This document shows positions 1,167 to 16,794 of a DNA stretch of 64,000 bases, in pieces; within the stretch, counting starts at the first letter, position 1; each line of letters begins with the position of its first letter. The notes beneath the pieces are model-generated. The model did not search any database, was not told the origin of the DNA, and was given only the letters and a program-made list of their open reading frames with translations. The DNA lies in contig JBAZWO010000001.1 of assembly GCA_041660305.1 (NCBI GenBank), positions 418,268-482,267 on the forward strand, in the 5' to 3' direction. Position numbers and translations under genes: made by a program. The stretch is from Patescibacteria group bacterium. GTDB lineage: Bacteria; Patescibacteriota; Patescibacteriia; UBA9570.

Positions 1167-1180
1167 ATAATTTATAATAA

Positions 1181-2035: not shown

Positions 2036-2090
2036 AATATTCTGCCTTATAAGAATAAATAATCCCGCATAAATATACCATATTATTTAA

Positions 2091-2119
2091 TTGACAGCAA
2101 GTATTTAATAGCTTACTAT
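2091..2119 (+). promoter_or_regulatory. sigma70-like promoter for the efflux operon
   Basis: TTGACA (2091-2096), 17-nt spacer, TACTAT (2114-2119), about 45 nt upstream of the 2166 start. Confidence 0.4.
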
Positions 2120-2165
2120 TACGTTATTATATTTATTAATTATTTCGTTTACATCTATATAAATT

Positions 2166-2831: not shown

Positions 2832-2832
2832 C

Positions 2833-4705: not shown

Positions 4706-4746
4706 AAAACCGTAGAGGCGCCCCGCGGGGCGCCTCTACGGTTTTG
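4704..4746. terminator. bidirectional intrinsic terminator
   Basis: Perfect 32-nt GC-rich palindrome CCGTAGAGGCGCCCCG/CGGGGCGCCTCTACGG (4710-4741) flanked by A6 and T4, lying between convergent genes. Confidence 0.75.
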
Positions 4747-4781
4747 TTTGTCGCTTAAACCAAGCTAATTAATATTAATAA

Positions 4782-5612: not shown

Positions 5613-5656
5613 ATCTTTTAATTTAATGAATTAATTAGTTTCGACCTAGTGGTACC

Positions 5657-5685
5657 ATGGTACAAAGCCCGGCTGACTATGTCAA
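5657..5685 (-). promoter_or_regulatory. putative promoter with a palindrome overlapping the -10
   Basis: On the minus strand: TTGACA (5685-5680), 17 nt, TACCAT (5662-5657). The 12-bp palindrome GTACCATGGTAC (5652-5663) overlaps the -10. Confidence 0.35.
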
Positions 5686-5711
5686 TTTACCACTTCATGT
5701 ACAATTCATAA

Positions 5712-5740
5712 TTGACATAAGCCCATTTTTTTAGTACTTT
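5712..5740 (+). promoter_or_regulatory. putative promoter of the tRNA-Leu pair
   Basis: TTGACA (5712-5717), 17 nt, TACTTT (5735-5740), about 25 nt upstream of the first tRNA. Confidence 0.4.
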
Positions 5741-5764
5741 ACAAGGTGCTTTTGTAATACATTA

Positions 5765-5846
5765 GCCGACGTGGTGAAATTGGTATACACGCTAGCTTTA
5801 GGAGCTAGTCCCGCAAGGGATGAGGGTTCGAGTCCCTCCGTCGGCA
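5765..5846 (+). tRNA. tRNA-Leu (anticodon TAG)
   Basis: Acceptor GCCGACG/CGTCGGC, anticodon stem CTAGC/GCTAG with loop TTTAGGA, long variable arm, T-loop GGTTCGAGTCC. Confidence 0.9.
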
Positions 5847-5858
5847 CGGTTATTTTTT

Positions 5859-5940
5859 GCCGATGTGGTGAAATTGGTATACACGCACGGTTCAGAGCCG
5901 TGTGTCGCAAGACTTGTGGGTTCGAGTCCCACCATCGGCA
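5859..5940 (+). tRNA. tRNA-Leu (anticodon CAG)
   Basis: Acceptor GCCGATG/CATCGGC, anticodon stem CACGG/CCGTG with loop TTCAGAG, long variable arm, T-loop GGTTCGAGTCC. Confidence 0.9.
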
Positions 5941-6029
5941 CAAATTAGAACTTTTTCTACCCAAGTATAAAATAATTGACATTTTTTTATAGTTGGGTAG
6001 AAAAAATCCAGATTTTTACTAGCCGCCTT

Positions 6030-6072
6030 TTGCTAACACACCGGGCTAAACCCGGGTGTTAGCAATATTTTA
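6030..6072 (+). terminator. probable terminator of the tRNA-Leu unit
   Basis: Stem TTGCTAACACACCGGG / CCCGGGTGTTAGCAA (one bulged A) with loop CTAAA, followed by TATTTTAT. Confidence 0.5.
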
Positions 6073-6138
6073 TCTGTGTCATCAGCATTTTTTATCCGTG
6101 ACATCTGTGCTTCAAGCATTTTATTATTATTTTTGGTC

Positions 6139-6166
6139 TTGACTTTTCCGTATTTTCCAGTATCCT
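6139..6166 (+). promoter_or_regulatory. putative promoter of the GC-rich unit
   Basis: TTGACT (6139-6144), 16 nt, TATCCT (6161-6166). The -10 is weak. Confidence 0.3.
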
Positions 6167-6195
6167 GGTGCCACCTTACAACCCGTGGAGGTCCT

Positions 6196-6384
6196 ATGAA
6201 AACAAGAGCGGGGCTCTTCTGTTCCACTTGCCGTAAGATTATTTACGGCAAGTGGGCGGAAGCGCCCACTGCAGAAAAAAGGGAAGAGGCGGCCTTCCAG
6301 GCTGCCGATGAAGCAATGAAAAATCACACCAAACGGTGTGGAAAAGTCATTGCTCTTCGGCGGCCTGCACGAGAGGCCGCCTGA
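6196..6384 (+). CDS. candidate 62-aa small protein (CxxC ... HxxxC); may instead be part of a structured RNA
   Basis: GGAGG (6187-6191) lies 4 nt before the ATG at 6196, giving MKTRAGLFCSTCRKIIYGKW...NHTKRCGKVIALRRPAREAA. The ORF is packed with perfect hairpins and is far more GC-rich than neighbouring genes, so coding status is uncertain. Confidence 0.3.
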   Translation: MKTRAGLFCSTCRKIIYGKWAEAPTAEKREEAAFQAADEAMKNHTKRCGKVIALRRPAREAA

Positions 6385-6444
6385 AAAAAACCCGCGGGGA
6401 TTTGGAAAATCCCCGCACAGCGCCTCGAAAGGAGGTGAGGAAAA

Positions 6445-6492
6445 ATGCGGAAGCGGAAGCGGAAGCGGAGGAAATGGGGGTTTCGATATTAG
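6445..6492 (+). CDS. candidate 15-aa micro-ORF MRKRKRKRRKWGFRY
   Basis: Strong SD AAAGGAGGTGAGG lies 5-6 nt upstream of the ATG at 6445. It is too short for the ORF track, and its 3' end is embedded in the 6476-6511 terminator stem. Confidence 0.25.
   Translation: MRKRKRKRRKWGFRY
6447..6470 (+). repeat. hexanucleotide tandem repeat (GCGGAA) x3 plus GCGGAG
   Basis: Read directly from the sequence: gcggaa gcggaa gcggaa gcggag. Confidence 0.9.
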
Positions 6493-6511
6493 TCAAATCG
6501 AGCCCCCTTTT
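6476..6511 (+). terminator. intrinsic terminator of the GC-rich unit
   Basis: GGGGG..TCGAT / ATCGA.CCCCC stem with a 9-nt loop, followed by TTTT. Confidence 0.5.
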
Positions 6512-6519
6512 CAAATTGA

Positions 6520-6569
6520 GAAAATAAATAATAGCTATTCTCCTCCTCTCTCACGAAGTGGAGAGGAGG
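6520..6569 (-). terminator. probable terminator of the 6587-7066 gene
   Basis: CCTCCTCTC (6542-6550) / GAGAGGAGG (6561-6569) stem immediately after the stop, followed on the minus strand by a T-rich stretch. Confidence 0.4.
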
Positions 6570-6586
6570 CCGGGAGGTGAGGTAGG

Positions 6587-7066
6587 CTATTTTTCCACCG
6601 TTAACGTAACCGTATAATCTTCCGGCGCAATAGTTGTGCCGGTTTTTGGCATAGGCGTTACTTCGCCCAAAGTAATAGTATAATTGCCTATAGTGACCGG
6701 GGTAGCACCTTCACCACTACCGCTACCAACAATCGTAACATACTCACTAGACTGTGCCACAGCGATCACTACGCTAACTGTGCCAGCTGTAATACACTGT
6801 GCACCTATTGGACAACGTGAATCGTTACTAATCTGTTTAACCGTTACTGCCACTTCTCCACCTACTAATGCCGTTTGATTAACTTGAACCGTAAACGCCC
6901 CGCCAAAATTCGCTGAAATATCATTGGTAACAACATTCTGATTTACAGTATTTACATTAGCTAGATTAGTAACTGGTTCATTAGAATTGGTATTAGCACA
7001 TCCAACACCAGCTAACATTAAAATAGCTAATGAGGTGGTGCTAATTGTTAAAAAAACATTGCGCAT
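6587..7066 (-). CDS. hypothetical lipoprotein
   Basis: 159 aa. The signal peptide has a lipobox-like LAGVGC, followed by a Thr/Val-rich beta-looking domain with a CPIGAQC pair. Confidence 0.55.
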   Translation of the reverse strand: MRNVFLTISTTSLAILMLAGVGCANTNSNEPVTNLANVNTVNQNVVTNDISANFGGAFTVQVNQTALVGGEVAVTVKQISNDSRCPIGAQCITAGTVSVVIAVAQSSEYVTIVGSGSGEGATPVTIGNYTITLGEVTPMPKTGTTIAPEDYTVTLTVEK

Positions 7067-7204
7067 AAATGTTGGTAATTAATAAATTGATTAAAATTAA
7101 AATAGTTAGTTTTTAAAATTATACCTTAACATTATAACTAGTTAGTTGTTCTTGCACAAACACCTTCCCTTTACATAGCGCTATTTTTTTGATACATTAA
7201 TTAC

Positions 7205-7420
7205 ATGCTTACAGCTGAGGATCTTAAAAACATTAAAACTATTGTTGATAGCGCTAAAAACGACATTGTTGCTTCAGTTGGCGAAGTGATTGAAGAAAAT
7301 GTGTTACCACAAATTTCCTCAATTAACGAAACTATTGAAAAGAACGTCCTACCACAGATTAACTCCTTACCAAATAAGGCTTTCATTACAGATAAAATGG
7401 CAGATTTAGAAACGAAGTAA
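7205..7420 (+). CDS. hypothetical small protein with an internal duplicated motif
   Basis: 71 aa. It contains IEENVLPQISSINET followed by IEKNVLPQINSLPNK, and the repeat is visible at DNA level. No family is recognised. Confidence 0.3.
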   Translation: MLTAEDLKNIKTIVDSAKNDIVASVGEVIEENVLPQISSINETIEKNVLPQINSLPNKAFITDKMADLETK

Positions 7421-7522
7421 ACATGTTCAAAACATTTGAACTATTTCAAACGTCACCTAAATAAACAACATTAAATTTGACCAGTTGGACACTTGGTAGT
7501 AACTGGGCGTTTTTATTTTCCC

Positions 7523-7551
7523 TAGACAATCACCCCTAAAATCGCTATGAT
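7523..7551 (+). promoter_or_regulatory. putative promoter of tRNA-Ser
   Basis: TAGACA (7523-7528), 17 nt, TATGAT (7546-7551), 20 nt upstream of the tRNA. It uses the same TAGACA -35 as the promoter at 51614. Confidence 0.45.
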
Positions 7552-7570
7552 AGGCTGGCAAAATCGCTCG

Positions 7571-7658
7571 GGAGAGGTGGCAGAGTTGGTTGAACGCGGC
7601 GCTCTCGAAAAGCGCTATGCCCGCAAGGGTATCGCGGGTTCGAATCCCGCCCTCTCCG
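7571..7658 (+). tRNA. tRNA-Ser (anticodon CGA)
   Basis: Acceptor GGAGAGG/CCTCTCC, anticodon stem GCGCT/AGCGC with loop CTCGAAA, long variable arm, T-loop GGTTCGAATCC. Confidence 0.9.
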
Positions 7659-7699
7659 CCTACGTCCCGAGTACTCGGGACTCCGGCGGACGAGTCCGC
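7659..7699 (+). repeat. tRNA-abutting twin-hairpin element, copy 1 (+)
   Basis: CC TACG TCCCGAG TA CTCGGGA CTCCGG then GCGGAC GA GTCCGC, starting directly after the discriminator base. Confidence 0.7.
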
Positions 7700-7727
7700 T
7701 AAGCCTATTTAAATAATAATTAAATTT

Positions 7728-7973
7728 ATGTCTGAAACTACTAAACGTGATTCTTTAGCGGTCGATCGCACTCATTTGGCTAATGAGCGCACATTGCTGG
7801 CTTATTGGCGTACCGGTTTATCATTTTTTGTATTAGGCGCTTTTATCTTGAAATTTGGCCTGTCGCTAGTTAGTTTTGTTTTGGCTATCTTGGCTATGTT
7901 ATTTGGTTTAGCTGTGTTTATATTTGGCACCAAGCGTTATATTGGCATGAAAAAAATTATTCATCAACGTTAA
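7728..7973 (+). CDS. DUF202 (YidH-like) membrane protein
   Basis: 81 aa. The motif DRTHLANERTLLAYWRTGLSF followed by two TM helices is characteristic of DUF202. Confidence 0.75.
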   Translation: MSETTKRDSLAVDRTHLANERTLLAYWRTGLSFFVLGAFILKFGLSLVSFVLAILAMLFGLAVFIFGTKRYIGMKKIIHQR

Positions 7974-7983
7974 TAACTATAAT

Positions 7984-8658
7984 ATGCGCATTCTCATTAT
8001 TGAAGACAATGAGAAACTAGCTTTTTCTCTAAAAAAAGGTTTAGAGCAAGATGGTAATACGATAAATTATGTGTTAGACGGTGAAGCTGGCGAACAATGT
8101 TTATTAACACAATATCAAAATTACGACGTAGTTATTTTAGATATTATGTTACCCAAACGTAACGGCCTAGATATTTGCAAAACTATCCGTAAACAAGGCA
8201 TTACCGTGCCTATATTAATATTAACTGCTAAAGATGATGTGGCTGATAAAATTACCGGCCTAGATTATGGCGCCGATGACTATTTAGTAAAACCCTTTGC
8301 TTTTGCAGAATTAGTCGCTCGTTTAAAGGCTTTGCACCGGCGTCCAATAGCTAGTACACCTGTTATATTATCTGCTGGGATATTAACCGTGAATACTACC
8401 ACTCACCAAGTACATTGCGCTAAACAAGAATTAACGTTAACCTTAAAAGAGTATCGCTTATTAGTTTATTTGCTACAACACTTAAATGAAGTAATTGCCC
8501 GCGAACAACTCTGGCAAACCTTGTGGAAAAATTCTACAGATACCATCAGTAATGTACTGGAAGCGCAAATTAAAAATTTACGAAAAAAAATAGCTCCCTA
8601 TGGATTGGAAAAAAATCTGGAAACAATACGTGGCTTGGGCTATCGCTTTAAAGCATAA
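7984..8658 (+). CDS. OmpR-family response regulator
   Basis: Receiver domain (MRILIIEDN...DVVILDIMLP...LTAKD) plus a winged-helix C-terminus (IETIRGLGYRFK). Confidence 0.9.
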   Translation: MRILIIEDNEKLAFSLKKGLEQDGNTINYVLDGEAGEQCLLTQYQNYDVVILDIMLPKRNGLDICKTIRKQGITVPILILTAKDDVADKITGLDYGADDYLVKPFAFAELVARLKALHRRPIASTPVILSAGILTVNTTTHQVHCAKQELTLTLKEYRLLVYLLQHLNEVIAREQLWQTLWKNSTDTISNVLEAQIKNLRKKIAPYGLEKNLETIRGLGYRFKA

Positions 8659-9628
8659 TATTTTTTGGCACGCCCGCATTAAACTTACTGTCTGGTATAG
8701 CCTAATTATTTTTGTTATTATTTCTATTTTTAGTAGCATGTTTTATTATAGTTTAGCCATTGAAATTCGTGATAACATTTTATTATCAGATATTGAAAAT
8801 CCAATTTTAATTAATGTGCTAATTAATCAAACGTTATTAAATATCCGGCGCATTATTATTATTGTTGATGGCGGCTTATTAATTGTTACCGCTGGTTTAG
8901 GTTATTTTTTAGCCGGAAAAACTCTGCAACCAATTCAAGCTATGTTACAAGCTCAACAACGTTTTATTGCCGATGCTTCACATGAATTACGCACTCCTTT
9001 AACAATTATTAAAACCACTACTGAAGTAGCTCTGCGCCAAACCAATCCAGCCGATTTTCAGCAAGCCTTAATTAGCAACCTGGAAGAAGTGAACAGCATG
9101 TCTAAAATCGTAGAAGATTTATTATGGCTAGCAAAACACCAGCAAACTAAGCCAACTTATGTTACTAAAAACGTTTCCCTGATTGCCTTGGCAAATAACG
9201 TCGGCCGCGCGATGCGGCCATTGGCTTTGAAAAAAAACATTAAATTAATCATAACCACTGCTGGCGCTGGTAATATATTAGGCAACGCCGATGATTTAGA
9301 ACATTTAATATTAAATTTATTAGATAACGCTATTAAATATACTCCCCGCCAAGGAATCGTTACTATAACTGTGCGGCCAAACAATGCCACAGTAACACTA
9401 ATCGTACAAGATTCTGGCCAAGGCATTGCCGCAAAAGATTTGCCTCATATTTTTGAACGATTTTACAAAGCCGATTCAGCTAGAACTTATACCAAACAAA
9501 GCGGCACCGGCTTGGGCTTGGCTATAGTGCAAACTATTGTAAAACAACATTATGGAACGATTACCGCTGAAAGTGCTGTGGGAGTCGGCACTCTATTTAC
9601 CGTGCATTTTCCCGCACATACCTCATAA
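8600..9628 (+). CDS. sensor histidine kinase (HisKA + HATPase_c)
   Basis: Two TM segments, H-box FIADASHELRTPLT, N-box LLDNAIKYTP and G-boxes DSGQGI / GTGLGLAIV. The true start is uncertain because the listed ATG overlaps the regulator gene by 59 nt. Confidence 0.85.
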   Translation: MDWKKIWKQYVAWAIALKHNIFWHARIKLTVWYSLIIFVIISIFSSMFYYSLAIEIRDNILLSDIENPILINVLINQTLLNIRRIIIIVDGGLLIVTAGLGYFLAGKTLQPIQAMLQAQQRFIADASHELRTPLTIIKTTTEVALRQTNPADFQQALISNLEEVNSMSKIVEDLLWLAKHQQTKPTYVTKNVSLIALANNVGRAMRPLALKKNIKLIITTAGAGNILGNADDLEHLILNLLDNAIKYTPRQGIVTITVRPNNATVTLIVQDSGQGIAAKDLPHIFERFYKADSARTYTKQSGTGLGLAIVQTIVKQHYGTITAESAVGVGTLFTVHFPAHTS

Positions 9629-11170
9629 GTCATTACCAGAATAAGACAAATTGAAGCTTTTATTGATTAATGGAAAATCAGGAATAAAATTACCTTTTCC
9701 CGCACAACCTAACACTGTCCAATTAATAAACGACGGATCGCGGACATCTACACGCGTTACCTTCCCCTCGAAATCCGTGACAACAAAATATACGATAGCC
9801 CCGCGCCAACCTTCTGTTACACCAATACCACAACTGTTTTTTCTGAGCTGGATTTCTTTATTAGATACCATTACATTATTAACCGTTAAACTCTGTAACG
9901 CTTGTTCTAAAATTTTTAATGAAGTTTGCACTTCATGAACACGCACCTGAAACCGACTCTGCACATCACCTTCCAGTTCTAATATCGTATCAAATTTCAG
10001 TTCCGAATAAGCCGCATAAGGATAATCAATACGCGCATCGTGCTTAATACCTATCGCTCGTCCGGCTATGCCAATAACACCATAATCTAACGCGATTTGA
10101 CGATCAAGTTTACCAGTTCCCTCTAGTCGATTAAACAATGTGCTACTCGTTTGCGCAATTTTCATCACCTCTGCAAAATCTTTGCCTATTTTTTTTAAAT
10201 CCTGCAACAAAACATGACACGCTTCAATAGAAATGTCTTTGGTAACACCACCAATACAATTAACTCCACGCAAAAATCTGCTGCCAGTAAGACGTTCATT
10301 GCACTGCATGATCATTTCACGCAGACGCGCGCCATTACTTCCGCCAAAACTATATCCAGTATCCAACATAATAAACCCGATATCATTAAAGTGATTAGCC
10401 AATCGTTCCAATTCAGAATAAATCACCCGTAAATAGTTGGTTTTTTTCGAAATGTTAATATCGGCCAAACTTTCAATGGCTTGGCAAAAAGCTAAAGCAT
10501 GCGTGAATGATGTATCTCCAGACACTCGTTCGGCTAACCGTACTTTATCAACCAGTGACAACGTTTCAAATAATTTCTCAATACCTTTGTGTTTATAGCC
10601 TAACTTTGGTTCTAATAAAATAATTTCTTCACCGGCTACGCTAAATCTAAAATGCCCCGGTTCTATAATGCCGGCATGTACCGGACCAACTGGAATTTCA
10701 TAAATCCCCTCACCATCAACTTTTTGGAATTCATAATTACCAACACTAAATGGCGGCCTTTGTTTCCAACTAACATCTTTTCGTAAGGGAAAAATATGTA
10801 CGGGCCAATTTTCGTGTAACAATATAGCTTTTGGATTAGGATGTCCAATCGGATTTAAACCAAAAAAGGTTTTAATTTTTCGTTCATAGCCAGATGCTTC
10901 TGGAATATCTTTAGTAAGAGATGGAAAATCTTCTGTATTATTTAGAATAATATAGGGCACAAGAAATACATTTTCTTTAGGAACACCGAAAATATACAAA
11001 ATCCTAAAGCCTACCCCATTTTTTCTTTCATCAGTGGCTGTGATGATTTTAAGTTGCAGTCGCTGCTTATAATACAGTTCTTTACAAATATTAACAATTT
11101 CGGAAATCGGAACCGGATAAGAAACAATATTATCATCTTGTTGAGTTTTAAAACGAGGATCGATATTCAT
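9623..11170 (-). CDS. HycE/HyfG-like large subunit (fused NuoC+NuoD-like) lacking the NiFe-binding cysteines
   Basis: 515 aa. Core PVGPVHAGIIEPGHFRF...LGYKHKGIEK matches group-4 hydrogenase/NuoD. The L1 position reads RVSGDTSFTH and the C-terminus reads NLSYSGNDL, where hydrogenases have RxCGxCxxxH and DPCxxCxxR. Confidence 0.85.
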   Translation of the reverse strand: MNIDPRFKTQQDDNIVSYPVPISEIVNICKELYYKQRLQLKIITATDERKNGVGFRILYIFGVPKENVFLVPYIILNNTEDFPSLTKDIPEASGYERKIKTFFGLNPIGHPNPKAILLHENWPVHIFPLRKDVSWKQRPPFSVGNYEFQKVDGEGIYEIPVGPVHAGIIEPGHFRFSVAGEEIILLEPKLGYKHKGIEKLFETLSLVDKVRLAERVSGDTSFTHALAFCQAIESLADINISKKTNYLRVIYSELERLANHFNDIGFIMLDTGYSFGGSNGARLREMIMQCNERLTGSRFLRGVNCIGGVTKDISIEACHVLLQDLKKIGKDFAEVMKIAQTSSTLFNRLEGTGKLDRQIALDYGVIGIAGRAIGIKHDARIDYPYAAYSELKFDTILELEGDVQSRFQVRVHEVQTSLKILEQALQSLTVNNVMVSNKEIQLRKNSCGIGVTEGWRGAIVYFVVTDFEGKVTRVDVRDPSFINWTVLGCAGKGNFIPDFPLINKSFNLSYSGNDL

Positions 11171-11171
11171 A

Positions 11172-12617
11172 TTAATACACAGAAGTAGCTGAATTGATTA
11201 ATAATGTTAACGGCGCTGGAATAAACAAACTAACTGTTACTAATATGATGATTAACATAATAATAGGCAACACTGTCCACTTACCTGCTTCGCCATGAGT
11301 TACTTGTTTTTCATTGTCTCCAAACATCATAGCAACCATGTGTTTAAAGAATCCAACAAACACAAGCACTAAACCAAATAATGCCAGCACTGTTACTGCC
11401 GGATGCTGTTGTATACCAGCCGATAAAATGGTAAATTCCGTCAAAAAAATACCAAACGGTGGTACCCCAGTAATCGCAAGGAACCCAATGATAAACGCGA
11501 CTCCAGTAATAGGCAGCACTGAAAGAGCCCCTTTAACATTAGCTATTTTTGTTGAGCTATATTTTAAGAATATATTGCCAGATGATAAAAATAGCAATGA
11601 TTTAGCCAAAGAATGATAAACCATATGCAAGAGAGCCGCAAACACACCATTGCCACCAAAACCAAAGCCTAATGCCATAATTCCCATATGCTCAATGCTT
11701 GAATAGGCCAGCAACCGTTTGTAATTTTTCTGACTTAGAATAATAAACGCCGGCACTAGGATTGATATTATGCCGAAAAAAATGAGCAGCTGTTGGGCAA
11801 ATAATGGACCAACCACCAAATCGACTACTACCTTAAAGCGTAAAATAGCAAAAAATGCTATGTTCAACAAAATACCAGAAAGCAGACTACTAATTGGCAC
11901 TGGTGCCTTGCTATGTGCATCTGGTAGCCAAGTATGCATGGGCACTAGCCCCATTTTCGTACCATAACCAACGAGGATAAAAATGAACGCCATTTTAACC
12001 ACAAACGGATCAAACCCGGTAATATTTGCCCAGATTGATTGCCAGGTTATTAAGCCGCCCTGTCCAGCTTGTAGTGCTGGATACAAAAACAATAACGTAC
12101 CAAAAAAACCAAGTAACAACCCTACTGAATTGATAATTAAATATTTCCAAGCCGCCTCAATAGCCGTTGGTTTATTGTAGAAGCTAATCAAAAAAGCTGT
12201 TGAAAGAGTAGTGGCCTCAACCGCAATCCACATTAAAATTGGATTAGTGGTACAAACGGCAAACAACATGGCCAAAATAAATAAATGTAAGAGCACAAAA
12301 TATTGTTTTATCTTATGAAAATCAATAATGCCCTTCGACATTTCCACAGCTAGATAGCCGCTAGAATACCAGGAAGCGGCCAAACCCACCACCGTTACAA
12401 TCATCATAATCAAGGCTCCCAAAGCATCAACGGAAAAATAAGGAATAAATTGATATGTTCCATCTTTAACAACTAGAGTTGTTATAACCAATGCGATTAT
12501 TAATTCCACTACAGCAGCACGGCTTACTACATAACTTAATTTAGCCATTTGTTTTTTAACAAAAAATGACAGTATTGAAGCGGTGAATGGCAAAACAATG
12601 AGAAGTAGTATTAACAT
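11172..12617 (-). CDS. antiporter-like subunit (HyfD/HyfF/NuoN/M family)
   Basis: 481 aa, polytopic, with VEATTLSTAF and GYGTKMGLVPMHTWLPDAHSKAPVPISSLLSG, the proton-conducting membrane transporter family motifs. Confidence 0.8.
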   Translation of the reverse strand: MLILLLIVLPFTASILSFFVKKQMAKLSYVVSRAAVVELIIALVITTLVVKDGTYQFIPYFSVDALGALIMMIVTVVGLAASWYSSGYLAVEMSKGIIDFHKIKQYFVLLHLFILAMLFAVCTTNPILMWIAVEATTLSTAFLISFYNKPTAIEAAWKYLIINSVGLLLGFFGTLLFLYPALQAGQGGLITWQSIWANITGFDPFVVKMAFIFILVGYGTKMGLVPMHTWLPDAHSKAPVPISSLLSGILLNIAFFAILRFKVVVDLVVGPLFAQQLLIFFGIISILVPAFIILSQKNYKRLLAYSSIEHMGIMALGFGFGGNGVFAALLHMVYHSLAKSLLFLSSGNIFLKYSSTKIANVKGALSVLPITGVAFIIGFLAITGVPPFGIFLTEFTILSAGIQQHPAVTVLALFGLVLVFVGFFKHMVAMMFGDNEKQVTHGEAGKWTVLPIIMLIIILVTVSLFIPAPLTLLINSATSVY

Positions 12618-12621
12618 AATT

Positions 12622-13281
12622 TTATTCTTCTTTTAAATTTTTCATGGCCGTTACATCTAATGAACCAACTTGCCGAAAAACCAACGTTGCAAATACCGTG
12701 GCAATCATTACCCATACCAAAATATCAAATAAGATGCCTACCTGTAGCCCAGGAGCTTGTTCTAATCCCGCTAAAAAAGCAAAGGAAACAATGGCATTTT
12801 CTAATGATAAGATACCAATCATTTGTGATAAAGCTCCTTTGCGATTAATCACTAAAAACACCGAAATAAGGAGCATGGCTATGGCCAAGGGCAACATATC
12901 TACATTTTGTTCAGTCAAAACCGTAAGTGGTTTAAACAGGTCGGAATAAGTGAAGGCTGTTAACATGGCTATGATAATCAATGTAACCGGCGCATTTAAA
13001 TAAGTACTAGCTGAAAATGTTATTTGATGTTCGCGAATAAGTCGATAAAAAAACTGGGGAGCAACGATTACTTTTAATACAAAAACTAACACTGCTATAA
13101 ACAAGGGCAGCCATGATGGTTGTTGTAATGCCGAGCTAAATAATAACACCGCCACAATTAACGACTGTACCAGGTAAAGCGTAATGGTAGAAGAACTTTT
13201 TCTAGACAAGTGCATAAAAATTACCAATAAAAACAGTAATATCTGAAGAAAAAATAAAATTTGTGTTGAGTTAGAAATCAT
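12622..13281 (-). CDS. HyfE-like small membrane subunit (NuoK-related)
   Basis: 219 aa with about 7 TM segments. It occupies the HyfE position between the NuoH-like and NuoN-like genes; the motif GILSLENAIVSFAF is HyfE-like. Confidence 0.65.
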   Translation of the reverse strand: MISNSTQILFFLQILLFLLVIFMHLSRKSSSTITLYLVQSLIVAVLLFSSALQQPSWLPLFIAVLVFVLKVIVAPQFFYRLIREHQITFSASTYLNAPVTLIIIAMLTAFTYSDLFKPLTVLTEQNVDMLPLAIAMLLISVFLVINRKGALSQMIGILSLENAIVSFAFLAGLEQAPGLQVGILFDILVWVMIATVFATLVFRQVGSLDVTAMKNLKEE

Positions 13282-13285: not shown

Positions 13286-14215
13286 CTAGATAATTAAACT
13301 AATAGCGATAAGACTTAATATGAACGAAATAAATAATAAATCCGGTAATCTAAAAAATCTATATTTTGCAATACTCGATTCTAAAATGGCAACGAAACTA
13401 CTAATAAATGTTACTTTCAATATTAATAATCCTAACGCAATTCCAATACTGAGCCACCCCATAGTTATTGCAATTCCCCATGGAAAAAACAGATTAGCAC
13501 CTAACGCTAGAAAGATTAAAAATTTACTGGCCGCTGCCCATTCTATTAATGCTAATCTCTTGCCCGAATACTCCAAAATCATCGCTTCATGAATCATAGT
13601 TAGTTCCAGATGAGTAGCTGGATTATCAAATGGAAAGCGCGCTGTTTCCGCTAGCAGTGCCAACACAAAGGCCAAAAAAGCCAACACAACTGGAGCAAAC
13701 GAATATAATGACAACGAAGAAATGGCCGCCGTTATTTTAAACAGATTCGTAGAATGAGCTGCTAGCGCTACGGCTAATAACGAAAATATTAACCCGCCTT
13801 CAGTTAACGCTGCTACCGTCATTTCTCGACTCGAACCAAACCCACCAAAGGCGCTACCTACATCGATACCGGCTAAGGCCAAAAAAAACGTGCTAAGAGC
13901 CATTAAGTACACAATAACCAATAAATCACTTAGAAAATTATTAGAAAATACTACTGTAACCAATGGAATACTAGCACCCACAATAATCATAACCGCAAAA
14001 ATAAGATAGGGCGCAAATTTAAATATCCAAGACGCATCGGTGCTGATAACCTCATCTTTATGTAATAATTTCCATAAATCTCGATACGGTTGTACAACAC
14101 TAGCACCTGCTCTGTTCTGAAATTTGGCTTTAATTTTTCTTACTAATCCAATAAACAACGGTGACAAAAATGGTACCAGTAGTAATTGAATTGTCCAAAA
14201 AATAATAGTGTCCAT
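13286..14215 (-). CDS. NuoH/HycD/HyfC-like membrane subunit
   Basis: 309 aa, polytopic, with RKIKAKFQNRAGASVVQPYRDLWKLL and FGGFGSSREM, typical of the NuoH/HycD family. Confidence 0.8.
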   Translation of the reverse strand: MDTIIFWTIQLLLVPFLSPLFIGLVRKIKAKFQNRAGASVVQPYRDLWKLLHKDEVISTDASWIFKFAPYLIFAVMIIVGASIPLVTVVFSNNFLSDLLVIVYLMALSTFFLALAGIDVGSAFGGFGSSREMTVAALTEGGLIFSLLAVALAAHSTNLFKITAAISSLSLYSFAPVVLAFLAFVLALLAETARFPFDNPATHLELTMIHEAMILEYSGKRLALIEWAAASKFLIFLALGANLFFPWGIAITMGWLSIGIALGLLILKVTFISSFVAILESSIAKYRFFRLPDLLFISFILSLIAISLII

Positions 14216-14221: not shown

Positions 14222-16267
14222 CTAGATAACTAAAAATACTAACAAGATCATTAGACTAATAAATAGATATAACACATAAATATTAACGCTGCCACTTTGA
14301 ATTTTTTTCATTTGCTCAGAAATTTTTGTAACCACTTTAATTATCGGTTGATAAAAGTAAGTACCGTAAACATCTTCAATTTCAAGCTTTACGCTCATAG
14401 GCTTTGGAACATAGCGCATCGCCACATCGTGATACTCAATACCCGTTTGTTTCGTAGGTTTTAGTATTCCACTAAAAATAGTAATAATCGACCGCGCAAA
14501 GCCAGTGGCGGTTATTTCCATACGCGAACCTAATTGCGTTCCGCAATCCCAAGTGGCCGCTTTAGTTATCGTTCTATCGCGCGTCAACCGGTGTACTATA
14601 AAAAATATCATTACCATTGCTAATACCAAACTGATAAAAATAGTTGGTACTGAAACAGCGGCAAAACCATCTTGTAAACTAACTGAACTTAAATTAGACA
14701 GCACCACGCCATTTACATGATAAAAAGGATTTAAATTGGCAATAACCGACAAGAGAATAGCCGTTACAGCACCTGAGAATAATCCTATTAGGAGAGTGAG
14801 AACGGCTAAGATAGCCATGCCAATTCTCAATGATAAAGACACCTCTTTCGTTTGACGCACTGCTTCACTTCTCGGCCGAGCTAAAAAAGTAGTCCCAAAT
14901 GCCTTAACAAAGCAAGCGGCAGCCAATCCACCGGTAAAAGCTAATGCTCCGGCAGCCAATAAAAATATCCATTGCACGGAAACATCTAACGATCTTATAC
15001 CACTAAATAACGTTTGAAACGTGATCCACTCACTAAAAAACCCATTAAACGGGGGTAGTGCGGAAATAGCGATAGAGCCGATTAAAAAGAAAAAAGCAGT
15101 CTGTGGCATGTATTTAATGATTCCGCCATAAGCCTCGATATTTCTGGTTTTCATTTTTAAAATTACTGAACCAGCTCCTAAAAATAATAATGCTTTAAAG
15201 ATAGCGTGATTCAAAGTATGAAACAATGCCGCTACCAAACCAAGCATGGCTAAAGATTTCATATCCAGCGCTAGAAACACCAATGAACTTCCTAATCCTA
15301 ATAAAATAATCCCAATATTCTCAATACTATGATAAGCTAGTAGTTTTTTAATGTCGTGTTCAGTGAGAGCGTATAATACACCCAATAGTGCCGATATTGA
15401 TCCTATAATTATTATAATAATACCCCACCACAATGGTACATTAGGCATGAGATCAATAAAAATCCGAATAAACATGTATACCCCTGTTTTGATCATGACT
15501 CCAGACATTAATGCGGACACATGCGAAGGAGAAGCAGGATGAGCTTTTGGCAACCAAATATGAACTGGAATAATACCAGCTTTCGTACCAAAACCAAGCA
15601 ATGAGAGTATGAAAATAATATTTTTTATAAGCGGAGAAACATTGCCAAGTTGCCCTTTAATAACCAAAAAATCAAATGACCCTGTAGCTTGATAGAGTAA
15701 TAAAAAAGCGCACATGATAAACGCGGTGCCAATGTGCGTCATAATAAAATAAAGTGACCCGGCTTTAATATTATCTTTTTCCTTATGTTCAAAAATAACC
15801 AAAAAATACGAAGCCAGTGACATGATTTCCCATACGATCAAGAAAAAAAAGGTGTTCGAAGCACTCACTACTAATATCATCCCCGCTATGAACAGATTGT
15901 AGAAAAAACCTAAGGCGCCCAGACTGTATTGTTTGTAATAATGTTTTACATAGCCTAGCGCATAAATCGAGGCACACAATGAAATTAGTGTGATAATAAA
16001 AATAAAAAAAGCTGCTAACTTATCTATATTAAATGATAAAGTTAGTAACGACAACGATGAACCGCTGCTATAAGAGAAGGTTGCGCCAAAAAGCAATACA
16101 GTTACTGAAGCTATTAGCCCTGTAATGGCACCTACCATAGAAAAAGTATTCCCCCATAAATTAGCCGCATGATCATTCTTTCTTAACCATAACGAACCAA
16201 GCGCTCCAATTATTAAGGCTATTAGAGACGAAAAAAAGAAAAATTGAGCTAAGCTAGAACTAAACAT
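14222..16267 (-). CDS. NuoL/HycC/HyfB-like antiporter-like subunit
   Basis: 681 aa with WEIMSLASYFLV and GFGTKAGIIPVHIWLPKAHPASPSHVSALMSGVMIKTG, the HyfB/NuoL family motifs. Confidence 0.85.
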   Translation of the reverse strand: MFSSSLAQFFFFSSLIALIIGALGSLWLRKNDHAANLWGNTFSMVGAITGLIASVTVLLFGATFSYSSGSSLSLLTLSFNIDKLAAFFIFIITLISLCASIYALGYVKHYYKQYSLGALGFFYNLFIAGMILVVSASNTFFFLIVWEIMSLASYFLVIFEHKEKDNIKAGSLYFIMTHIGTAFIMCAFLLLYQATGSFDFLVIKGQLGNVSPLIKNIIFILSLLGFGTKAGIIPVHIWLPKAHPASPSHVSALMSGVMIKTGVYMFIRIFIDLMPNVPLWWGIIIIIIGSISALLGVLYALTEHDIKKLLAYHSIENIGIILLGLGSSLVFLALDMKSLAMLGLVAALFHTLNHAIFKALLFLGAGSVILKMKTRNIEAYGGIIKYMPQTAFFFLIGSIAISALPPFNGFFSEWITFQTLFSGIRSLDVSVQWIFLLAAGALAFTGGLAAACFVKAFGTTFLARPRSEAVRQTKEVSLSLRIGMAILAVLTLLIGLFSGAVTAILLSVIANLNPFYHVNGVVLSNLSSVSLQDGFAAVSVPTIFISLVLAMVMIFFIVHRLTRDRTITKAATWDCGTQLGSRMEITATGFARSIITIFSGILKPTKQTGIEYHDVAMRYVPKPMSVKLEIEDVYGTYFYQPIIKVVTKISEQMKKIQSGSVNIYVLYLFISLMILLVFLVI

Positions 16268-16269: not shown

Positions 16270-16794
16270 TTATTTTACTTCAAACACATCAAACATTTTT
16301 AATAAGTAGCACAGAATCGTTTTGGGCGATGGCGGATCGCCGGGAATTTGAAAATCAACAGGTATAACACTAGCTACCCCATCTAATACCGCATAAGATC
16401 CTCTAAAAATACCTCCATTAATGGCATCATCGCCTACGGCTACCACTAGTTTAGGAGTTGGCGTAGCCTCATAAGTTTTAATTAACGCTTCGCGCATGTT
16501 TCTAGAAACGGCTCCAGTAACCATCAACATATCTGCGTGTCGGGGCGACGCTACAAAATGAATGCCAAAGCGTTCAATATCATAATAGGCATTACTTAAT
16601 GCCGTTAGTTCCTGTTCACAAGCATTGGTTGAACCGGTATCTACTTCTCGAATAGCTAACGACCCTTTAAATAATTTTTTCACTTTTTTTTCTAACTGTT
16701 GACCGATTACAGTAATATCATCACTGCGATTTAATGACTTTACATCGATAACTGTTTTAGGTGTTGAAAATATTTTATAGTAAAATTTGAACAT
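16270..16794 (-). CDS. NuoB/HycG-like small subunit with a degenerate Fe-S site
   Basis: 174 aa. YDIERFGIHFVASPRHADMLMVTGAV is the NuoB/HycG core. The ligand positions read GSTNACEQE, GDDAINGG and PGDPPSP, against the usual GSCNGCE, GxCAxxGG and PGCPP. Confidence 0.8.
   Translation of the reverse strand: MFKFYYKIFSTPKTVIDVKSLNRSDDITVIGQQLEKKVKKLFKGSLAIREVDTGSTNACEQELTALSNAYYDIERFGIHFVASPRHADMLMVTGAVSRNMREALIKTYEATPTPKLVVAVGDDAINGGIFRGSYAVLDGVASVIPVDFQIPGDPPSPKTILCYLLKMFDVFEVK

What the first reader, a model, noticed from the sequence alone, without database searches (positions are those of the whole stretch)
9623..11170. Large subunit: both NiFe-binding CxxC motifs replaced and no C-terminal processing extension
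The conserved LAER... position, where HycE-type enzymes carry R-x-C-G-x-C-x-x-x-H, reads LAERVSGDTSFTHALAF here (Cys to Ser and Cys to Thr). The protein ends ...FPLINKSFNLSYSGNDL, where hydrogenases carry D-P-C-x-x-C-x-x-R followed by a cleavable extension (Cys to Ser and Cys to Gly, Asp-Pro to Asn-Leu). The protein stops right after the motif, so there is nothing for a maturation endopeptidase to remove. The surrounding scaffold (PVGPVHAGIIEPGHFRF, LGYKHKGIEK, and the NuoC-like N-terminal 120 aa) is well conserved. This argues for a functional protein under selection rather than a decaying pseudogene.
Basis: partly seen in the sequence, partly recalled or inferred. Interest (0 to 1): 0.7.

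Follow-up and report, generated by a model that had tools for sequence, protein, structure and literature searches.

The report
Cysteine-free hydrogenase relative (Ehr complex)
This gene is the large subunit of an Ehr complex, a known hydrogenase-like membrane complex of unknown function that cannot bind nickel-iron; here the partner small subunit has also lost its iron-sulfur site.

Summary
The gene lies on the minus strand (9623-11170, 515 aa). All four NiFe-ligand cysteines of HycE are replaced (S217, T220, S509, G512). The protein ends exactly where mature, protease-cleaved HycE ends. It is not decaying: dN/dS is about 0.1, and the replacement motifs RVSGD[ST] and NLSYSGxDL-stop occur in all 80 related loci.

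This is already described. It is EhrL of an "energy-converting hydrogenase-related" (Ehr/Hyq) complex. Jaffe et al. 2020 reported that a monophyletic CPR/Patescibacteria Ehr clade lacks these cysteines. The missing C-terminal extension is a lineage trait, because the nearest four-Cys hydrogenases lack it too.

Three results go beyond the finding:
- The gene closes a six-gene operon, ehrS-A-B-C-D-L.
- In this clade the small subunit has lost three of its four [4Fe-4S] ligands (T56, D123, D153). Two of the replacements are near-invariant Asp.
- No ferredoxin-type subunit is encoded, while every ion-channel residue checked in the membrane subunits is conserved.

The complex therefore probably carries no redox cofactor. 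My best guess, at moderate confidence, is a redox-independent ion translocator of the Mrp type with a remodelled peripheral cap. Its function has not been tested.

The parts
9623..11170 (-). ehrL: fused NuoC-like (residues 23-137) plus NuoD/HycE-like large subunit, 515 aa, with no NiFe ligands
   Evidence: Pfam PF00329 and PF00346; HycE 1e-71; AF2 pLDDT 94.8; TM 0.93 to 7z0s_E. It is 100% identical to P0001, which NCBI names 'MAG: NADH-quinone oxidoreductase subunit C [Patescibacteria group bacterium]'.
10499..10528 (-). Former L1 NiFe motif: RVSGDTSFTH (S217 and T220 replace Cys; D219 is inserted between them)
   Evidence: The pattern R[VI]SGD[ST] occurs in nearly all 80 loci. Gly-Asp is kept in all 80 and Ser at the first Cys position in 80 of 80.
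9626..9652 (-). Former L2 NiFe motif and C-terminus: NLSYSGNDL-stop (S509 and G512 replace Cys). The end coincides with the mature C-terminus of HycE (R537).
   Evidence: The tail after the motif is 0 aa in 80 of 80 loci, against 32 aa in HycE and HyfG.
10658..10687 (-). Beta1-beta2 loop GPVHAGIIEP, conserved. E170 aligns with the loop Glu of HycE. I169 sits at the position of the quinone-binding His38 of Thermus Nqo4.
   Evidence: This is the lowest-confidence stretch of the AF2 model (mean pLDDT 62 for residues 161-170). A flexible loop would explain the low confidence.
11172..12617 (-). ehrD: HyfF/NuoM/N-like antiporter-type subunit, 481 aa
   Evidence: PF00361; hydrogenase 4 subunit F, below cut-off; E134, K221 and E394 conserved.
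12622..13281 (-). ehrC: HyfE-like membrane subunit, 219 aa
   Evidence: weak PF00420; hydrogenase 4 membrane subunit, below cut-off; K70, E161, D186 and D209 shared with HyfE.
13286..14215 (-). ehrB: HycD/HyfC/NuoH-like membrane subunit, 309 aa
   Evidence: PF00146; 24 conserved charged or aromatic residues, including E139 = NuoH E157, D197 = D213, E204 = E220, E215 = E228 and Y216 = Y229.
14222..16267 (-). ehrA: HyfB/NuoL-like antiporter-type subunit, 681 aa
   Evidence: NF005086 hydrogenase 4 subunit B, 687 bits against a cut-off of 667. E147, K229, H350, H354, K358 and E413 invariant.
16270..16794 (-). ehrS: NuoB/HycG-like small subunit, 174 aa, with three of four [4Fe-4S] ligands replaced
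   Evidence: It is 100% identical to P0271.
16615..16641 (-). DTGSTNACE: CxxC has become TxxC (T56; C59 retained)
16411..16434 (-). GDDAINGG: third cluster Cys replaced by D123
   Evidence: GDDAI[DN]GG in 107 of the 120 nearest homologues.
16330..16344 (-). PGDPP: fourth cluster Cys replaced by D153
   Evidence: PGDPP in 118 of the 120 nearest homologues.

Best explanation
The gene is ehrL, the large subunit of an Ehr (energy-converting-hydrogenase-related, also called Hyq-type) membrane complex. It is the last gene of a tightly packed six-gene operon, ehrS-ehrA-ehrB-ehrC-ehrD-ehrL (window 16794 to 9623, minus strand), in a Patescibacteria/CPR genome.

Shown:
- It descends from group-4 [NiFe] hydrogenases.
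- It has none of the four Ni/Fe cysteines and neither quinone-binding residue of complex I.
- It is under strong purifying selection.
- In this clade the small subunit has also lost three of the four cysteines of the only remaining [4Fe-4S] cluster. They are replaced by Thr/Ser/Asp, Asp and Asp.
- No ferredoxin-like (HycF/NuoI) subunit is encoded in the operon.
- The membrane arm keeps the Glu/Lys/His residues of the complex I, Mrp and Hyf ion channels.

Inferred:
- The complex carries no electron-transfer cofactor, so it cannot be driven by redox chemistry.
- It most likely works as a secondary ion translocator, for example H+-coupled cation antiport or controlled H+ conduction, as in Mrp.
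- The peripheral NuoB/C/D-like cap is kept because it closes and gates the NuoH-like entry channel.
- The two former metal sites have been rebuilt as conserved hydroxyl/carboxylate clusters that bind a proton, a cation or a structural metal. These are S217, D219, T220, S509, D514 and the C-terminal carboxylate in EhrL, and T56, C59, D123 and D153 in EhrS.
- In a fermentative CPR cell with an F-type ATPase and no respiratory chain, such a device would interconvert or regulate H+ and Na+ gradients or pH.

My confidence that this is an Ehr-family, non-hydrogenase, selected protein is about 0.95. My confidence in the cofactor-free ion-translocator mechanism is about 0.4.
For: Identity and cysteine loss.

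Family-wide conservation of the replacement motifs: RVSGD[ST] and NLSYSGxDL-stop in 80 of 80 loci from at least 10 phyla and in the 120 nearest database proteins.

Purifying selection: dN/dS is 0.10 for ehrL, 0.039 for ehrC and 0.037 for ehrD in the L003/L007 pair (dS 0.5-0.6). All other pairs have saturated pS and low pN.

Operon: six genes with 1-6 nt gaps. The same S-A-B-C-D-L cassette occurs in L001, L002, L004-L007, L084 and L085 with unrelated flanking genes.

Small-subunit cluster loss: HycG CNGC, GAC and PGCPP against TNAC, GDD and PGDPP here. PGDPP occurs in 118 of the 120 nearest homologues.

No other cofactor site: no CxxC in any of the six proteins, and no CxxCxxCxxxC motif in any frame of the 64-kb window.

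Contrast within the family: more distant Ehr/Hyq loci (L009-L080, 36-45% identity, order A-B-C-D-L-S) keep all four small-subunit Cys. The loss is therefore specific to this clade, which is nested inside the Cys-less radiation.

Membrane arm intact: EhrA E147, K229, H350, H354, K358, E413 and EhrD E134, K221, E394 are invariant and align with NuoL/M/N TM5 Glu, TM7 Lys, TM8 His/Lys and TM12 Glu. EhrB keeps the NuoH/HycD acidic residues.

No quinone site: Nqo4 H38 aligns with I169 and Y87 with G218 (the roles of these residues are from PMC4758237).

Host biology: Patescibacteria generally lack a respiratory chain but nearly all encode an F-type ATPase, which may run in reverse to drive antiporters or pH homeostasis (PMC11665869).

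Literature: the CPR Ehr clade lacks the metal-binding Cys and 'likely cannot interact with H2' (PMC7304191).
Against: - No experiment exists for any member of this clade. The mechanism rests on absences (no ligands, no partner genes) plus conservation.
- A pure antiporter would not obviously need a 690-residue peripheral cap under selection as strong as that on the membrane subunits. The invariance of D219, D123, D153 and C59 suggests that something specific happens there.
- The MrpB/C/E/F/G-type subunits thought to handle Na+ in Mrp and MBH are absent.
- Asp can ligate Fe-S clusters in some proteins (from memory), so cluster loss is inferred, not shown.
- A partner encoded elsewhere in the genome cannot be excluded from a 64-kb window.
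- For the related Hyq complex, genetics in Azorhizobium were interpreted as in vivo H2 uptake and evolution despite the missing CxxC motifs (PMC3357923). 'No NiFe Cys means no redox role' is therefore not universally accepted for the wider family.
Confidence: 0.45

Rival explanations
1. The remodelled pocket is a new, non-redox catalytic or ligand-binding site. Binding or turnover of a small molecule or metal ion at the S217/D219/T220/S509/E170/C-terminal-carboxylate site, and/or at the T56/C59/D123/D153 site, drives or gates ion translocation. The coupling would be chemo-mechanical, using the complex I loop machinery, rather than simple antiport.
For: - The substituted residues are as conserved as catalytic residues: SGD in 80 of 80 loci, and PGDPP in 118 and GDDAI[DN]GG in 107 of the 120 nearest homologues.
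- The single retained cluster Cys, C59, is invariant in all 79 sequences even where the cluster ligands are gone.
- The coupling loop (beta1-beta2, E170, H165, H173) and the NuoH-like loop acids are conserved.
- The peripheral subunits show the same low dN/dS as the membrane subunits.
Against: - No nucleotide-, substrate- or cofactor-binding domain was detected beyond the hydrogenase scaffold.
- No conserved neighbouring gene or riboswitch hints at a substrate.
- The same large-subunit motifs occur in relatives that still have the Fe-S cluster, so the pocket did not evolve for a cofactor-free role.
Confidence: 0.25
2. The complex is still a redox enzyme. It would be either a non-canonical hydrogenase or H2:acceptor oxidoreductase, as proposed for Hyq, or the membrane anchor of an electron-input module encoded elsewhere, as in the proposed formate dehydrogenase-Ehr complex.
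For: - Azorhizobium hyq mutants were reported to lose endogenous H2 recycling and evolution although HyqG lacks both CxxC motifs (PMC3357923).
- An FDH-Ehr complex was hypothesised for Margulisbacteria and Saganbacteria (PMC6349859).
- Geobacter Ehr subunits are more abundant on formate (PMC7894505).
- Asp can serve as an Fe-S ligand in some proteins (from memory).
Against: - All those systems retain the small-subunit [4Fe-4S] cluster, often with a fused NuoI-like 2x[4Fe-4S] domain (HyqI Cys-55/58/112/152; L004 S'; distant loci). This clade has one Cys left of four and no ferredoxin subunit.
- There are no NiFe ligands.
- There is no quinone-site His or Tyr.
- No hyp or hycI maturation genes, and no FDH or NuoEFG genes, occur in the 64-kb window.
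- Flanking genes differ between genomes.
- CPR bacteria generally lack quinones and electron-transport chains.
Confidence: 0.12
3. The peripheral subunits are evolutionary relics, or the operon is a decaying remnant of a hydrogenase with no current function.
For: All recognisable cofactor ligands are gone, and CPR genomes are reduced.
Against: - dN/dS is 0.04-0.10.
- Intact ORFs occur in 80 loci and in more than 120 clusters at 90% identity, spread over many phyla.
- Sequences from different phyla are 62-71% identical.
- The replacement residues are invariant rather than random.
- Operon GC content equals that of the rest of the window.
- Reduced genomes would be expected to delete an unused 7.2-kb operon.
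Confidence: 0.02
4. It is a real [NiFe] hydrogenase in which other cysteines (C229 in ALAFCQ, C489 in VLGCAGKG) take over metal binding.
For: C229 is conserved in the 8 closest sequences.
Against: - C229 is Ala in 57 of 73 distant family members and Thr in HycE and HyfG.
- C489 occurs in 1 of 8 close sequences. The other seven have Tyr or His, and distant homologues mostly have His, Arg or Tyr.
- Sequence and structural alignments agree on the ligand positions.
- There is no Fe-S relay in the small subunit.
Confidence: 0.01

Closest known systems
Ehr complexes (Ech/energy-converting-hydrogenase-related; EhrA/B/C/D/L/S of Geobacter sulfurreducens GSU0739-0745; family defined by Coppi 2005 and Marreiros et al. 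2013, the latter two recalled from memory and from citing papers)
   Same: - Six-subunit composition: NuoL-like, NuoH-like, HyfE-like, NuoM/N-like, fused NuoCD-like large subunit and NuoB-like small subunit.
- The large subunit lacks the NiFe cysteines.
- Function is unknown.
- The CPR members were already placed in this family and noted to lack the Cys (PMC7304191).
   Different: - Gene order here is S-A-B-C-D-L, whereas the more distant family loci sampled here have A-B-C-D-L-S.
- The small subunit has lost three of four [4Fe-4S] ligands. The other Ehr loci I sampled keep all four, and some fuse a NuoI-like ferredoxin domain (PMC6349859 supplement).
- I found no statement of this cluster loss in the searchable literature. 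The two founding papers were not available to read.
Hyq 'endo-hydrogenase' of Azorhizobium caulinodans (hyqBCEFGI)
   Same: - A six-subunit core homologue of complex I.
- HyqG is a fused NuoC::D of about 504 aa that lacks both CxxC motifs (PMC3357923).
- The gene order matches the distant A-B-C-D-L-S loci found here.
   Different: - HyqI keeps the CxxC...C...C ligands of an N2-type cluster and is proposed to reduce quinone. Genetic data link it to H2 turnover.
- The window complex lacks the cluster, and its host lineage generally lacks quinones.
E. coli hydrogenase 3/4 large subunits HycE and HyfG (formate hydrogenlyase, PDB 7Z0S)
   Same: - Best sequence match (E = 1e-71) and best structural match (TM 0.93, rmsd 2.2 A, 30% identity).
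- Fused NuoC-NuoD architecture.
- The partner genes are homologous to HyfB, C, E, F and I.
   Different: - All four NiFe Cys are replaced, and there is no 32-aa C-terminal extension.
- No HycF/HyfH or HycB/HyfA ferredoxins.
- No hyp, hycI or hycH genes nearby.
Respiratory complex I Q-module (NuoB, NuoCD, NuoH) and membrane arm (NuoL/M/N/K)
   Same: - The fold is shared (TM 0.85-0.90 to E. coli NuoCD).
- Like NuoD, the large subunit has no NiFe ligands.
- The antiporter-like and NuoH-like charged residues are conserved.
   Different: - No quinone-binding His38 or Tyr87 equivalents (I169, G218).
- No N2 cluster.
- No NuoI, E, F, G, A or J genes.
- NCBIfam NuoD and NuoB models score below their cut-offs (231 against 360 bits, and 115.7 against 116 bits).
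Mrp-type multisubunit cation/proton antiporters
   Same: - Two MrpA/MrpD-like (PF00361) subunits with intact Glu/Lys channel residues.
- No redox cofactor. This is the functional analogy proposed here.
   Different: - No MrpB, C, E, F or G homologues were detected.
- A NuoH-like subunit plus a NuoB/C/D-like peripheral cap is present, which Mrp lacks.
MBH and MBS/Mbx of Pyrococcus furiosus (PDB 6CFW, 6U8Y)
   Same: Homologous large and small subunits (MbhL E = 1.1e-41, MbsL 3e-25, MbhJ 5.4e-26). MBS/Mbx is another hydrogenase descendant that changed chemistry.
   Different: MBH and MBS keep the three [4Fe-4S] clusters of their MbhJ/N-type subunits and carry out ferredoxin-driven redox chemistry (from memory). 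No such clusters are encoded here.

Membership tests
[quoted passage not shown] | N-terminal L1 motif RxCGxCxxxH with two Ni/Fe-ligating Cys | tested here: not met
   RVSGDTSFTH: Cys to S217 and T220.
[quoted passage not shown] | C-terminal L2 motif [DE][PL]CxxCxx[RH] with two Ni/Fe-ligating Cys | tested here: not met
   NLSYSGNDL: Cys to S509 and G512.
[quoted passage not shown] | Overall NuoD/HycE fold | tested here: met
   AF2 pLDDT 94.8; Foldseek TM 0.93 and rmsd 2.2 A to HycE 7z0s_E.
Group 4 membrane-bound [NiFe] hydrogenase (complex) | Small subunit with four Cys binding the proximal [4Fe-4S] cluster | tested here: not met
   T56, C59, D123 and D153 at the positions of HycG C48, C51, C115 and C145.
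Group 4 membrane-bound [NiFe] hydrogenase (complex) | Hyp maturation genes, and for Hyc/Hyf-type enzymes a C-terminal extension plus a specific endopeptidase | tested here: inconclusive
   No Hyp, HycI or HycH Pfam hits among about 50 ORFs of the 64-kb window, and no extension. The rest of the genome was not available. The nearest four-Cys relatives also lack the extension, so this feature does not discriminate.
Ehr / Hyq (hydrogenase-related complexes) | Large subunit homologous to group-4 hydrogenases but without the NiFe-binding Cys | tested here: met
   Definition as quoted in PMC6349859, PMC10284858 and PMC3569383.
Ehr / Hyq (hydrogenase-related complexes) | Gene cluster encoding a NuoL-like, NuoH-like, HyfE-like and NuoM/N-like subunit, a fused NuoCD-like large subunit and a NuoB-like small subunit | tested here: met
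   Pfam and NCBIfam on the six ORFs. Synteny in 80 loci. Subunit lists in PMC7894505 and PMC3357923.
Ehr / Hyq (hydrogenase-related complexes) | Phylogenetic placement inside the Cys-less radiation, sister to tail-less four-Cys hydrogenases | tested here: met
   Rough neighbour-joining tree of 144 large subunits. It is distance-based only and has no support values.
Ehr / Hyq (hydrogenase-related complexes) | Small subunit retaining an N2-type [4Fe-4S] cluster (stated for HyqI; seen in the other Ehr loci sampled) | tested here: not met
   This is the respect in which the window clade departs from the rest of the family. It is not clear that the cluster is a defining feature of Ehr.
Respiratory complex I (NuoD/NuoB Q-module) | Quinone head-group ligands: His38 and Tyr87 in Thermus Nqo4 numbering | tested here: not met
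   The HMMER alignment to 2fug_4 puts I169 at H38 and G218 at Y87. Roles of the residues are from PMC4758237.
Respiratory complex I (NuoD/NuoB Q-module) | Cluster N2 in NuoB, and NuoI, NuoA, NuoJ and NuoK present | tested here: not met
   NCBIfam NuoD and NuoB models score below their cut-offs.
Mrp cation/proton antiporter | MrpA/MrpD-type subunits with conserved TM5 Glu, TM7 Lys and TM12 Lys/Glu | tested here: met
   EhrA E147, K229, E413 and EhrD E134, K221, E394. The E. coli reference numbering is from memory.
Mrp cation/proton antiporter | Small subunits MrpB, C, E, F and G | tested here: not met
   There are only six genes in the operon and none matches Mrp small-subunit families. EhrC is HyfE-like with a weak NuoK (PF00420) match.

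The most novel reading that the evidence does not exclude
This clade would be a naturally occurring complex-I/hydrogenase-type machine with no electron-transfer cofactor at all. It is found in CPR bacteria, and also in Lentisphaerota and in MAGs labelled Thermodesulfobacteriota, Deltaproteobacteria and Syntrophales. Both metal sites of the peripheral arm have been converted into invariant Asp/Ser/Thr/Cys clusters, while the coupling loops and ion channels stay intact. It would show that the conserved 'Q-module plus antiporter' architecture can operate, or be gated, by ion or ligand binding alone. It would also give ultra-small fermentative bacteria a so far unrecognised way to handle membrane potential.
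Probability: 0.4. Interest if true: 0.6.

Novelty: already known. Interest (0 to 1): 0.3.

Why it matters
The finding as stated restates the defining property of Ehr/Hyq complexes: a hydrogenase-like large subunit with no NiFe cysteines and no extension. It was published for exactly this CPR clade, so on its own it adds little.

What could matter is the wider picture assembled here. In this sub-clade even the last Fe-S cluster is gone, and it has been replaced by conserved aspartates. The proton-channel machinery remains under strong selection.

If the complex is truly cofactor-free, it is a natural dissection of the coupling mechanism of the complex I superfamily, with ion translocation separated from redox chemistry. 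It is also a candidate answer to how Patescibacteria manage H+/Na+ gradients. These bacteria have an ATP synthase but no respiratory chain.

The cassette is compact (7.2 kb, six genes). That should make heterologous expression, transport assays and cryo-EM realistic.

Tried and rejected
- Alternative Cys ligands (C229, C489): rejected by their conservation pattern.
- Pseudogene or relaxed selection: rejected by dN/dS and intact orthologues. Most pairs are saturated at synonymous sites, so only the L003/L007 pair gives a real ratio.
- Conserved neighbouring genes as a clue to a partner or substrate: none found. The local neighbours (318-aa membrane protein, U32 peptidase, histidine kinase and response regulator) are absent next to the cassette in other genomes.
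- Riboswitch or other RNA element upstream of the operon: nothing at Rfam gathering thresholds in the window or in seven related loci.
- Promoter and terminator scans: no more hits than in shuffled sequence. One sigma-70-like site at 16863-16836 (minus strand) lies in the ehrS upstream gap, but it carries no weight.
- Hidden ferredoxin ORF: no CxxCxxCxxxC motif in any frame of the window.
- Intermediates between the cluster-containing and cluster-free types: P0122 lies on a 1.7-kb contig with only the large-subunit gene. P0125 has no DNA available, though its large-subunit gene is the last in its operon.
- The founding Ehr papers (Marreiros 2013, Coppi 2005) could not be read. I therefore cannot exclude that cluster-less small subunits were already noted there.
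- No Ehr structure exists in the PDB copy. The best match is HycE.
- The AF2 model's coordinates are not exposed, so I could not list the pocket-lining residues directly.

Full report
**1. What is at the coordinates**

The interval 9623-11170 is a single ORF on the minus strand. It has an ATG start, encodes 515 aa and stops at 9623-9625. The plus-strand frame is full of stops.

Pfam finds a NuoC-like domain (PF00329, residues 23-137, E = 1.2e-16) followed by a NuoD-like domain (PF00346, E = 6.7e-45). The nickel-hydrogenase family gives only a sub-threshold match.

The protein is 100% identical to a database entry that NCBI names 'MAG: NADH-quinone oxidoreductase subunit C [Patescibacteria group bacterium]', carried on a 491-kb contig. 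The GC content of the operon (0.34-0.38) matches the rest of the window.

**2. Checking the observation**

Three independent alignments agree.
- HMMER against all PDB chains gives E. coli HycE (7z0s_E) as the best hit (E = 1e-71). It aligns HycE ...DRVCGICGFAHSTAY with ...ERVSGDTSFTHALAF, and ...SLDPCYSCTD with ...SFNLSYSGND.
- MAFFT with HycE and HyfG taken from E. coli K-12 (loci L081 and L082) gives the same columns.
- An AlphaFold2 model built on 82 homologues (pLDDT 94.8, pTM 0.94) superposes on HycE with TM 0.93 and rmsd 2.2 A over 517 columns.

The four Ni/Fe ligands are therefore S217, T220, S509 and G512.

The last residue, L515, aligns with HycE R537. HycE and HyfG continue for 32 residues and this protein stops. 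From established knowledge of HycE maturation (recalled, not tested here), R537 is the residue after which the HycI protease cuts. The protein therefore ends exactly where the mature hydrogenase ends.

It fails. C229 is Ala in 57 of 73 distant homologues and Thr in HycE. C489 occurs only in this window.

**3. Selection**

A scan of one genome per species found 292 related stretches, of which the best 80 were kept. All 80 encode full-length proteins with R[VI]SGD[ST]... and NLSY[SA]GxDL followed directly by a stop. The 120 nearest database proteins show the same pattern.

I computed Nei-Gojobori estimates on codon alignments of ten cassettes.
- Synonymous sites are saturated in almost every pair (pS 0.64-0.92), while pN is 0.02-0.27.
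- The one unsaturated pair (L003/L007, dS 0.5-0.6) gives dN/dS of 0.10 for ehrL, 0.039 for ehrC and 0.037 for ehrD.

This is a selected, functional protein.

**4. Context: a six-gene operon**

The genes upstream on the same strand are separated by gaps of 1-6 nt.

| Gene | Coordinates | Length | Relatives |
|---|---|---|---|
| ehrS | 16270-16794 | 174 aa | NuoB/HycG-like |
| ehrA | 14222-16267 | 681 aa | HyfB/NuoL-like |
| ehrB | 13286-14215 | 309 aa | HycD/NuoH-like |
| ehrC | 12622-13281 | 219 aa | HyfE-like |
| ehrD | 11172-12617 | 481 aa | HyfF/NuoM/N-like |
| ehrL | 9623-11170 | 515 aa | HycE/NuoCD-like |

The same S-A-B-C-D-L cassette occurs in Magasanikbacteria, Parcubacteria, Lentisphaerae, Victivallales and other MAGs at 60-69% identity. 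The flanking genes are unrelated from genome to genome.

More distant relatives (36-45% identity) use the order A-B-C-D-L-S. They come from Planctomycetota, Omnitrophota, Terriglobia, Burkholderiales, Gallionella and others.

**5. What is already known**

This is the Ehr family, 'energy-converting (Ech) hydrogenase-related complexes'. It was first named in Geobacter sulfurreducens (EhrA, C, L, S and others; GSU0739-45). It is defined as related to group-4 hydrogenases but lacking the Ni/Fe-coordinating residues, and its function is unknown (PMC6349859; PMC10284858; PMC7894505; PMC10432482; PMC3569383).

The alphaproteobacterial Hyq 'endo-hydrogenase' (hyqBCEFGI) has the same architecture. Its HyqG is described as lacking both CxxC motifs, while HyqI keeps four Cys for an N2-type cluster (PMC3357923).

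Most directly, Jaffe et al. [quoted passage not shown]

**6. Correction on the C-terminal extension**

The 50%-identity representatives include true four-Cys proteins at about 34-44% identity. Examples are P0127 (RICGVCAASH...ELCYSCTDL), P0137 (...NLCYSCTDR) and P0145 (...ELCYACLDR). They also end at this position with no tail.

In a rough neighbour-joining tree they sit between the HycE/HyfG group and the Cys-less radiation. The lack of an extension is therefore inherited from tail-less hydrogenase ancestors. The 'NL' in place of 'DP' also occurs in some of these four-Cys proteins. Neither feature followed from the ligand loss.

**7. What goes beyond the finding**

The small subunit of this clade has lost its cluster ligands.

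| HycG motif | Here | Change |
|---|---|---|
| DCGGCNGCE | DTGSTNACE | T56 replaces the first ligand Cys; C59 retained |
| GACGNSGG | GDDAINGG | D123 replaces Cys |
| PGCPP | PGDPP | D153 replaces Cys |

Among the 120 nearest small subunits, PGDPP occurs in 118 and GDDAI[DN]GG in 107. The lone Cys is invariant.

In contrast, nearly all small subunits from the A-B-C-D-L-S loci keep SCNGCE, GDCG and PGCPP.

No protein of the operon contains a CxxC motif, and no CxxCxxCxxxC ferredoxin motif exists in any frame of the 64-kb window. No HycF/NuoI-like gene is present.

The window clade is a tight, derived branch nested in the Cys-less radiation. It is at least 60% identical internally and at most 46% identical to full-length sequences outside the cassette-bearing group.

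I found no mention of this small-subunit loss in the searchable literature. I could not read the two founding papers.

**8. The membrane arm is intact**

In alignments with E. coli NuoL/M/N/H/K and HyfB/C/E/F (loci L082 and L083), the following residues are invariant in both clades:
- EhrA: E147, K229, H350, H354, K358, E413.
- EhrD: E134, K221, E394.

They fall on the TM5 Glu, TM7 Lys, TM8 His/Lys and TM12 Glu positions of the antiporter-like subunits. The E. coli numbering is from memory.

EhrB keeps 24 conserved charged or aromatic residues. They include the equivalents of NuoH R148, E157, D213, E220, E228 and Y229.

In EhrL the beta1-beta2 loop GPVHAGIIEPGHFRF is almost invariant. It is also the least confidently modelled stretch, as expected for a mobile coupling loop.

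The complex I quinone ligands are absent. I169 sits at Nqo4 H38 and G218 at Y87 (residue roles from PMC4758237).

**9. Most likely mechanism**

- Shown: there are no NiFe ligands, no small-subunit cluster ligands, no ferredoxin subunit and no quinone-site residues. The ion-channel residues are intact, and all six genes are under strong selection.
- Inferred: the complex has no electron-transfer cofactor, so it cannot be a redox-driven pump.

The simplest role is a secondary ion translocator akin to Mrp. Examples are H+-coupled cation exchange or regulated H+ conduction. The NuoB/C/D-like cap would close and gate the NuoH-like channel. The former metal sites would be rebuilt as carboxylate/hydroxyl clusters.

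This fits host biology. Patescibacteria lack respiratory chains but nearly all encode an F-type ATPase, which may run in reverse to energise antiporters or pH homeostasis (PMC11665869). I put about 0.4 on this mechanism.

**10. Rivals**

- A new non-redox binding or catalytic site in the remodelled pocket, coupled to ion movement (about 0.25). The invariance of D219, C59, D123 and D153 favours it. The lack of any substrate clue weakens it.
- A residual redox role through non-Cys ligation or a partner encoded elsewhere, as proposed for Hyq and for the FDH-Ehr complex (about 0.12). It is weakened by the absence of any electron relay.
- A relic (about 0.02) or a cryptic hydrogenase (about 0.01). 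Both are excluded by the selection and alignment data.

**11. Verdict**

Curated libraries still lack a model for it. NCBIfam scores the large subunit at 231 bits against a NuoD cut-off of 360, and the small subunit at 115.7 against 116, so it is routinely annotated as 'NADH-quinone oxidoreductase subunit C' or 'Ni,Fe-hydrogenase III large subunit'.

The part worth following up is the apparently complete loss of redox cofactors in this clade. That would make it a compact, testable model for redox-independent operation of the complex I architecture.

Noticed in passing
L004 (Lentisphaerae bacterium GWF2_38_69) 3-12316: The window-type cassette S-A-B-C-D-L (4303-11545) sits between the large subunit (2789-4309, SIAGDTVIGH...NLSYCGNDL) and the small subunit (11546-12316) of a second, different Ehr cluster. 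That small subunit is a NuoI-like 2x[4Fe-4S] domain fused to a four-Cys NuoB-like domain. This suggests either insertion of a mobile cassette or a tandem duplication that could explain the permuted gene order.
   Followed up: partly
proteins P0127, P0137, P0145, P0148 and others: The nearest true four-Cys hydrogenases (34-44% identity) end at ...CxxCxD[RL] with no C-terminal extension, so they would need no maturation endopeptidase. Some representatives keep only the first Cys (for example P0247 RICGDSSVAY, P0173 RICGDETFAN) and could be transitional forms.
   Followed up: partly
L013-L079 small subunits: Cluster-retaining Ehr/Hyq-type small subunits of Burkholderiales, Gallionella and relatives carry an extra conserved Cys two residues after the third ligand (GDCGC[TSD]GG). 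HycG and HyfI do not have it.
   Followed up: no
window 49983-51488 (+), with tRNAs at 51739-51812 and 51908-51979: A complete 16S rRNA gene (1445 bits) is followed by two tRNAs, with no 23S match at gathering threshold anywhere in the window. A minus-strand ORF starts at 52056. The rRNA genes therefore appear to be unlinked. The 16S gene explains the GC spike to 0.50.
   Followed up: no
window 8600-9628 (+) and 7984-8658 (+): A histidine kinase and OmpR-type response regulator pair converges on ehrL. The kinase ORF overlaps the last 6 nt of ehrL (9623-9628). The pair is not found next to the cassette in other genomes.
   Followed up: partly
window 60787-62322 (+): A sodium:solute symporter family protein (PF00474, E = 8e-20). 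This is a weak hint that a Na+ gradient is used by this organism.
   Followed up: no
window 29413-30797 (-) and 47598-48005 (+): An AbiEii-type nucleotidyltransferase toxin (PF08843) lies next to a 221-aa ORF with no family match, which is possibly its antitoxin. A PIN-domain protein is encoded elsewhere in the window.
   Followed up: no
window 41341-46839 (+), 52056-54125 (-), 25270-26850 (-): Three large predicted surface proteins. One is 1832 aa with beta-helix and Ig-like domains. One is 689 aa with six CarboxypepD_reg repeats. One is 526 aa with a TIG domain. Such adhesin-like proteins could serve an epibiotic lifestyle.
   Followed up: no
window 54164-55297 (+) versus tRNA at 54233-54305 (+): The mechanical ORF for the ATP-grasp protein (TTG start at 54164) overlaps a tRNA gene on the same strand. 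The real start codon must lie downstream of 54305.
   Followed up: no
L084 6950-7880: In this 866-kb contig the public gene calls omit the NuoH-like ehrB and instead list two short ORFs on the opposite strand. My six-frame search finds an intact ehrB there, so this is an annotation artefact and not a gene loss.
   Followed up: partly
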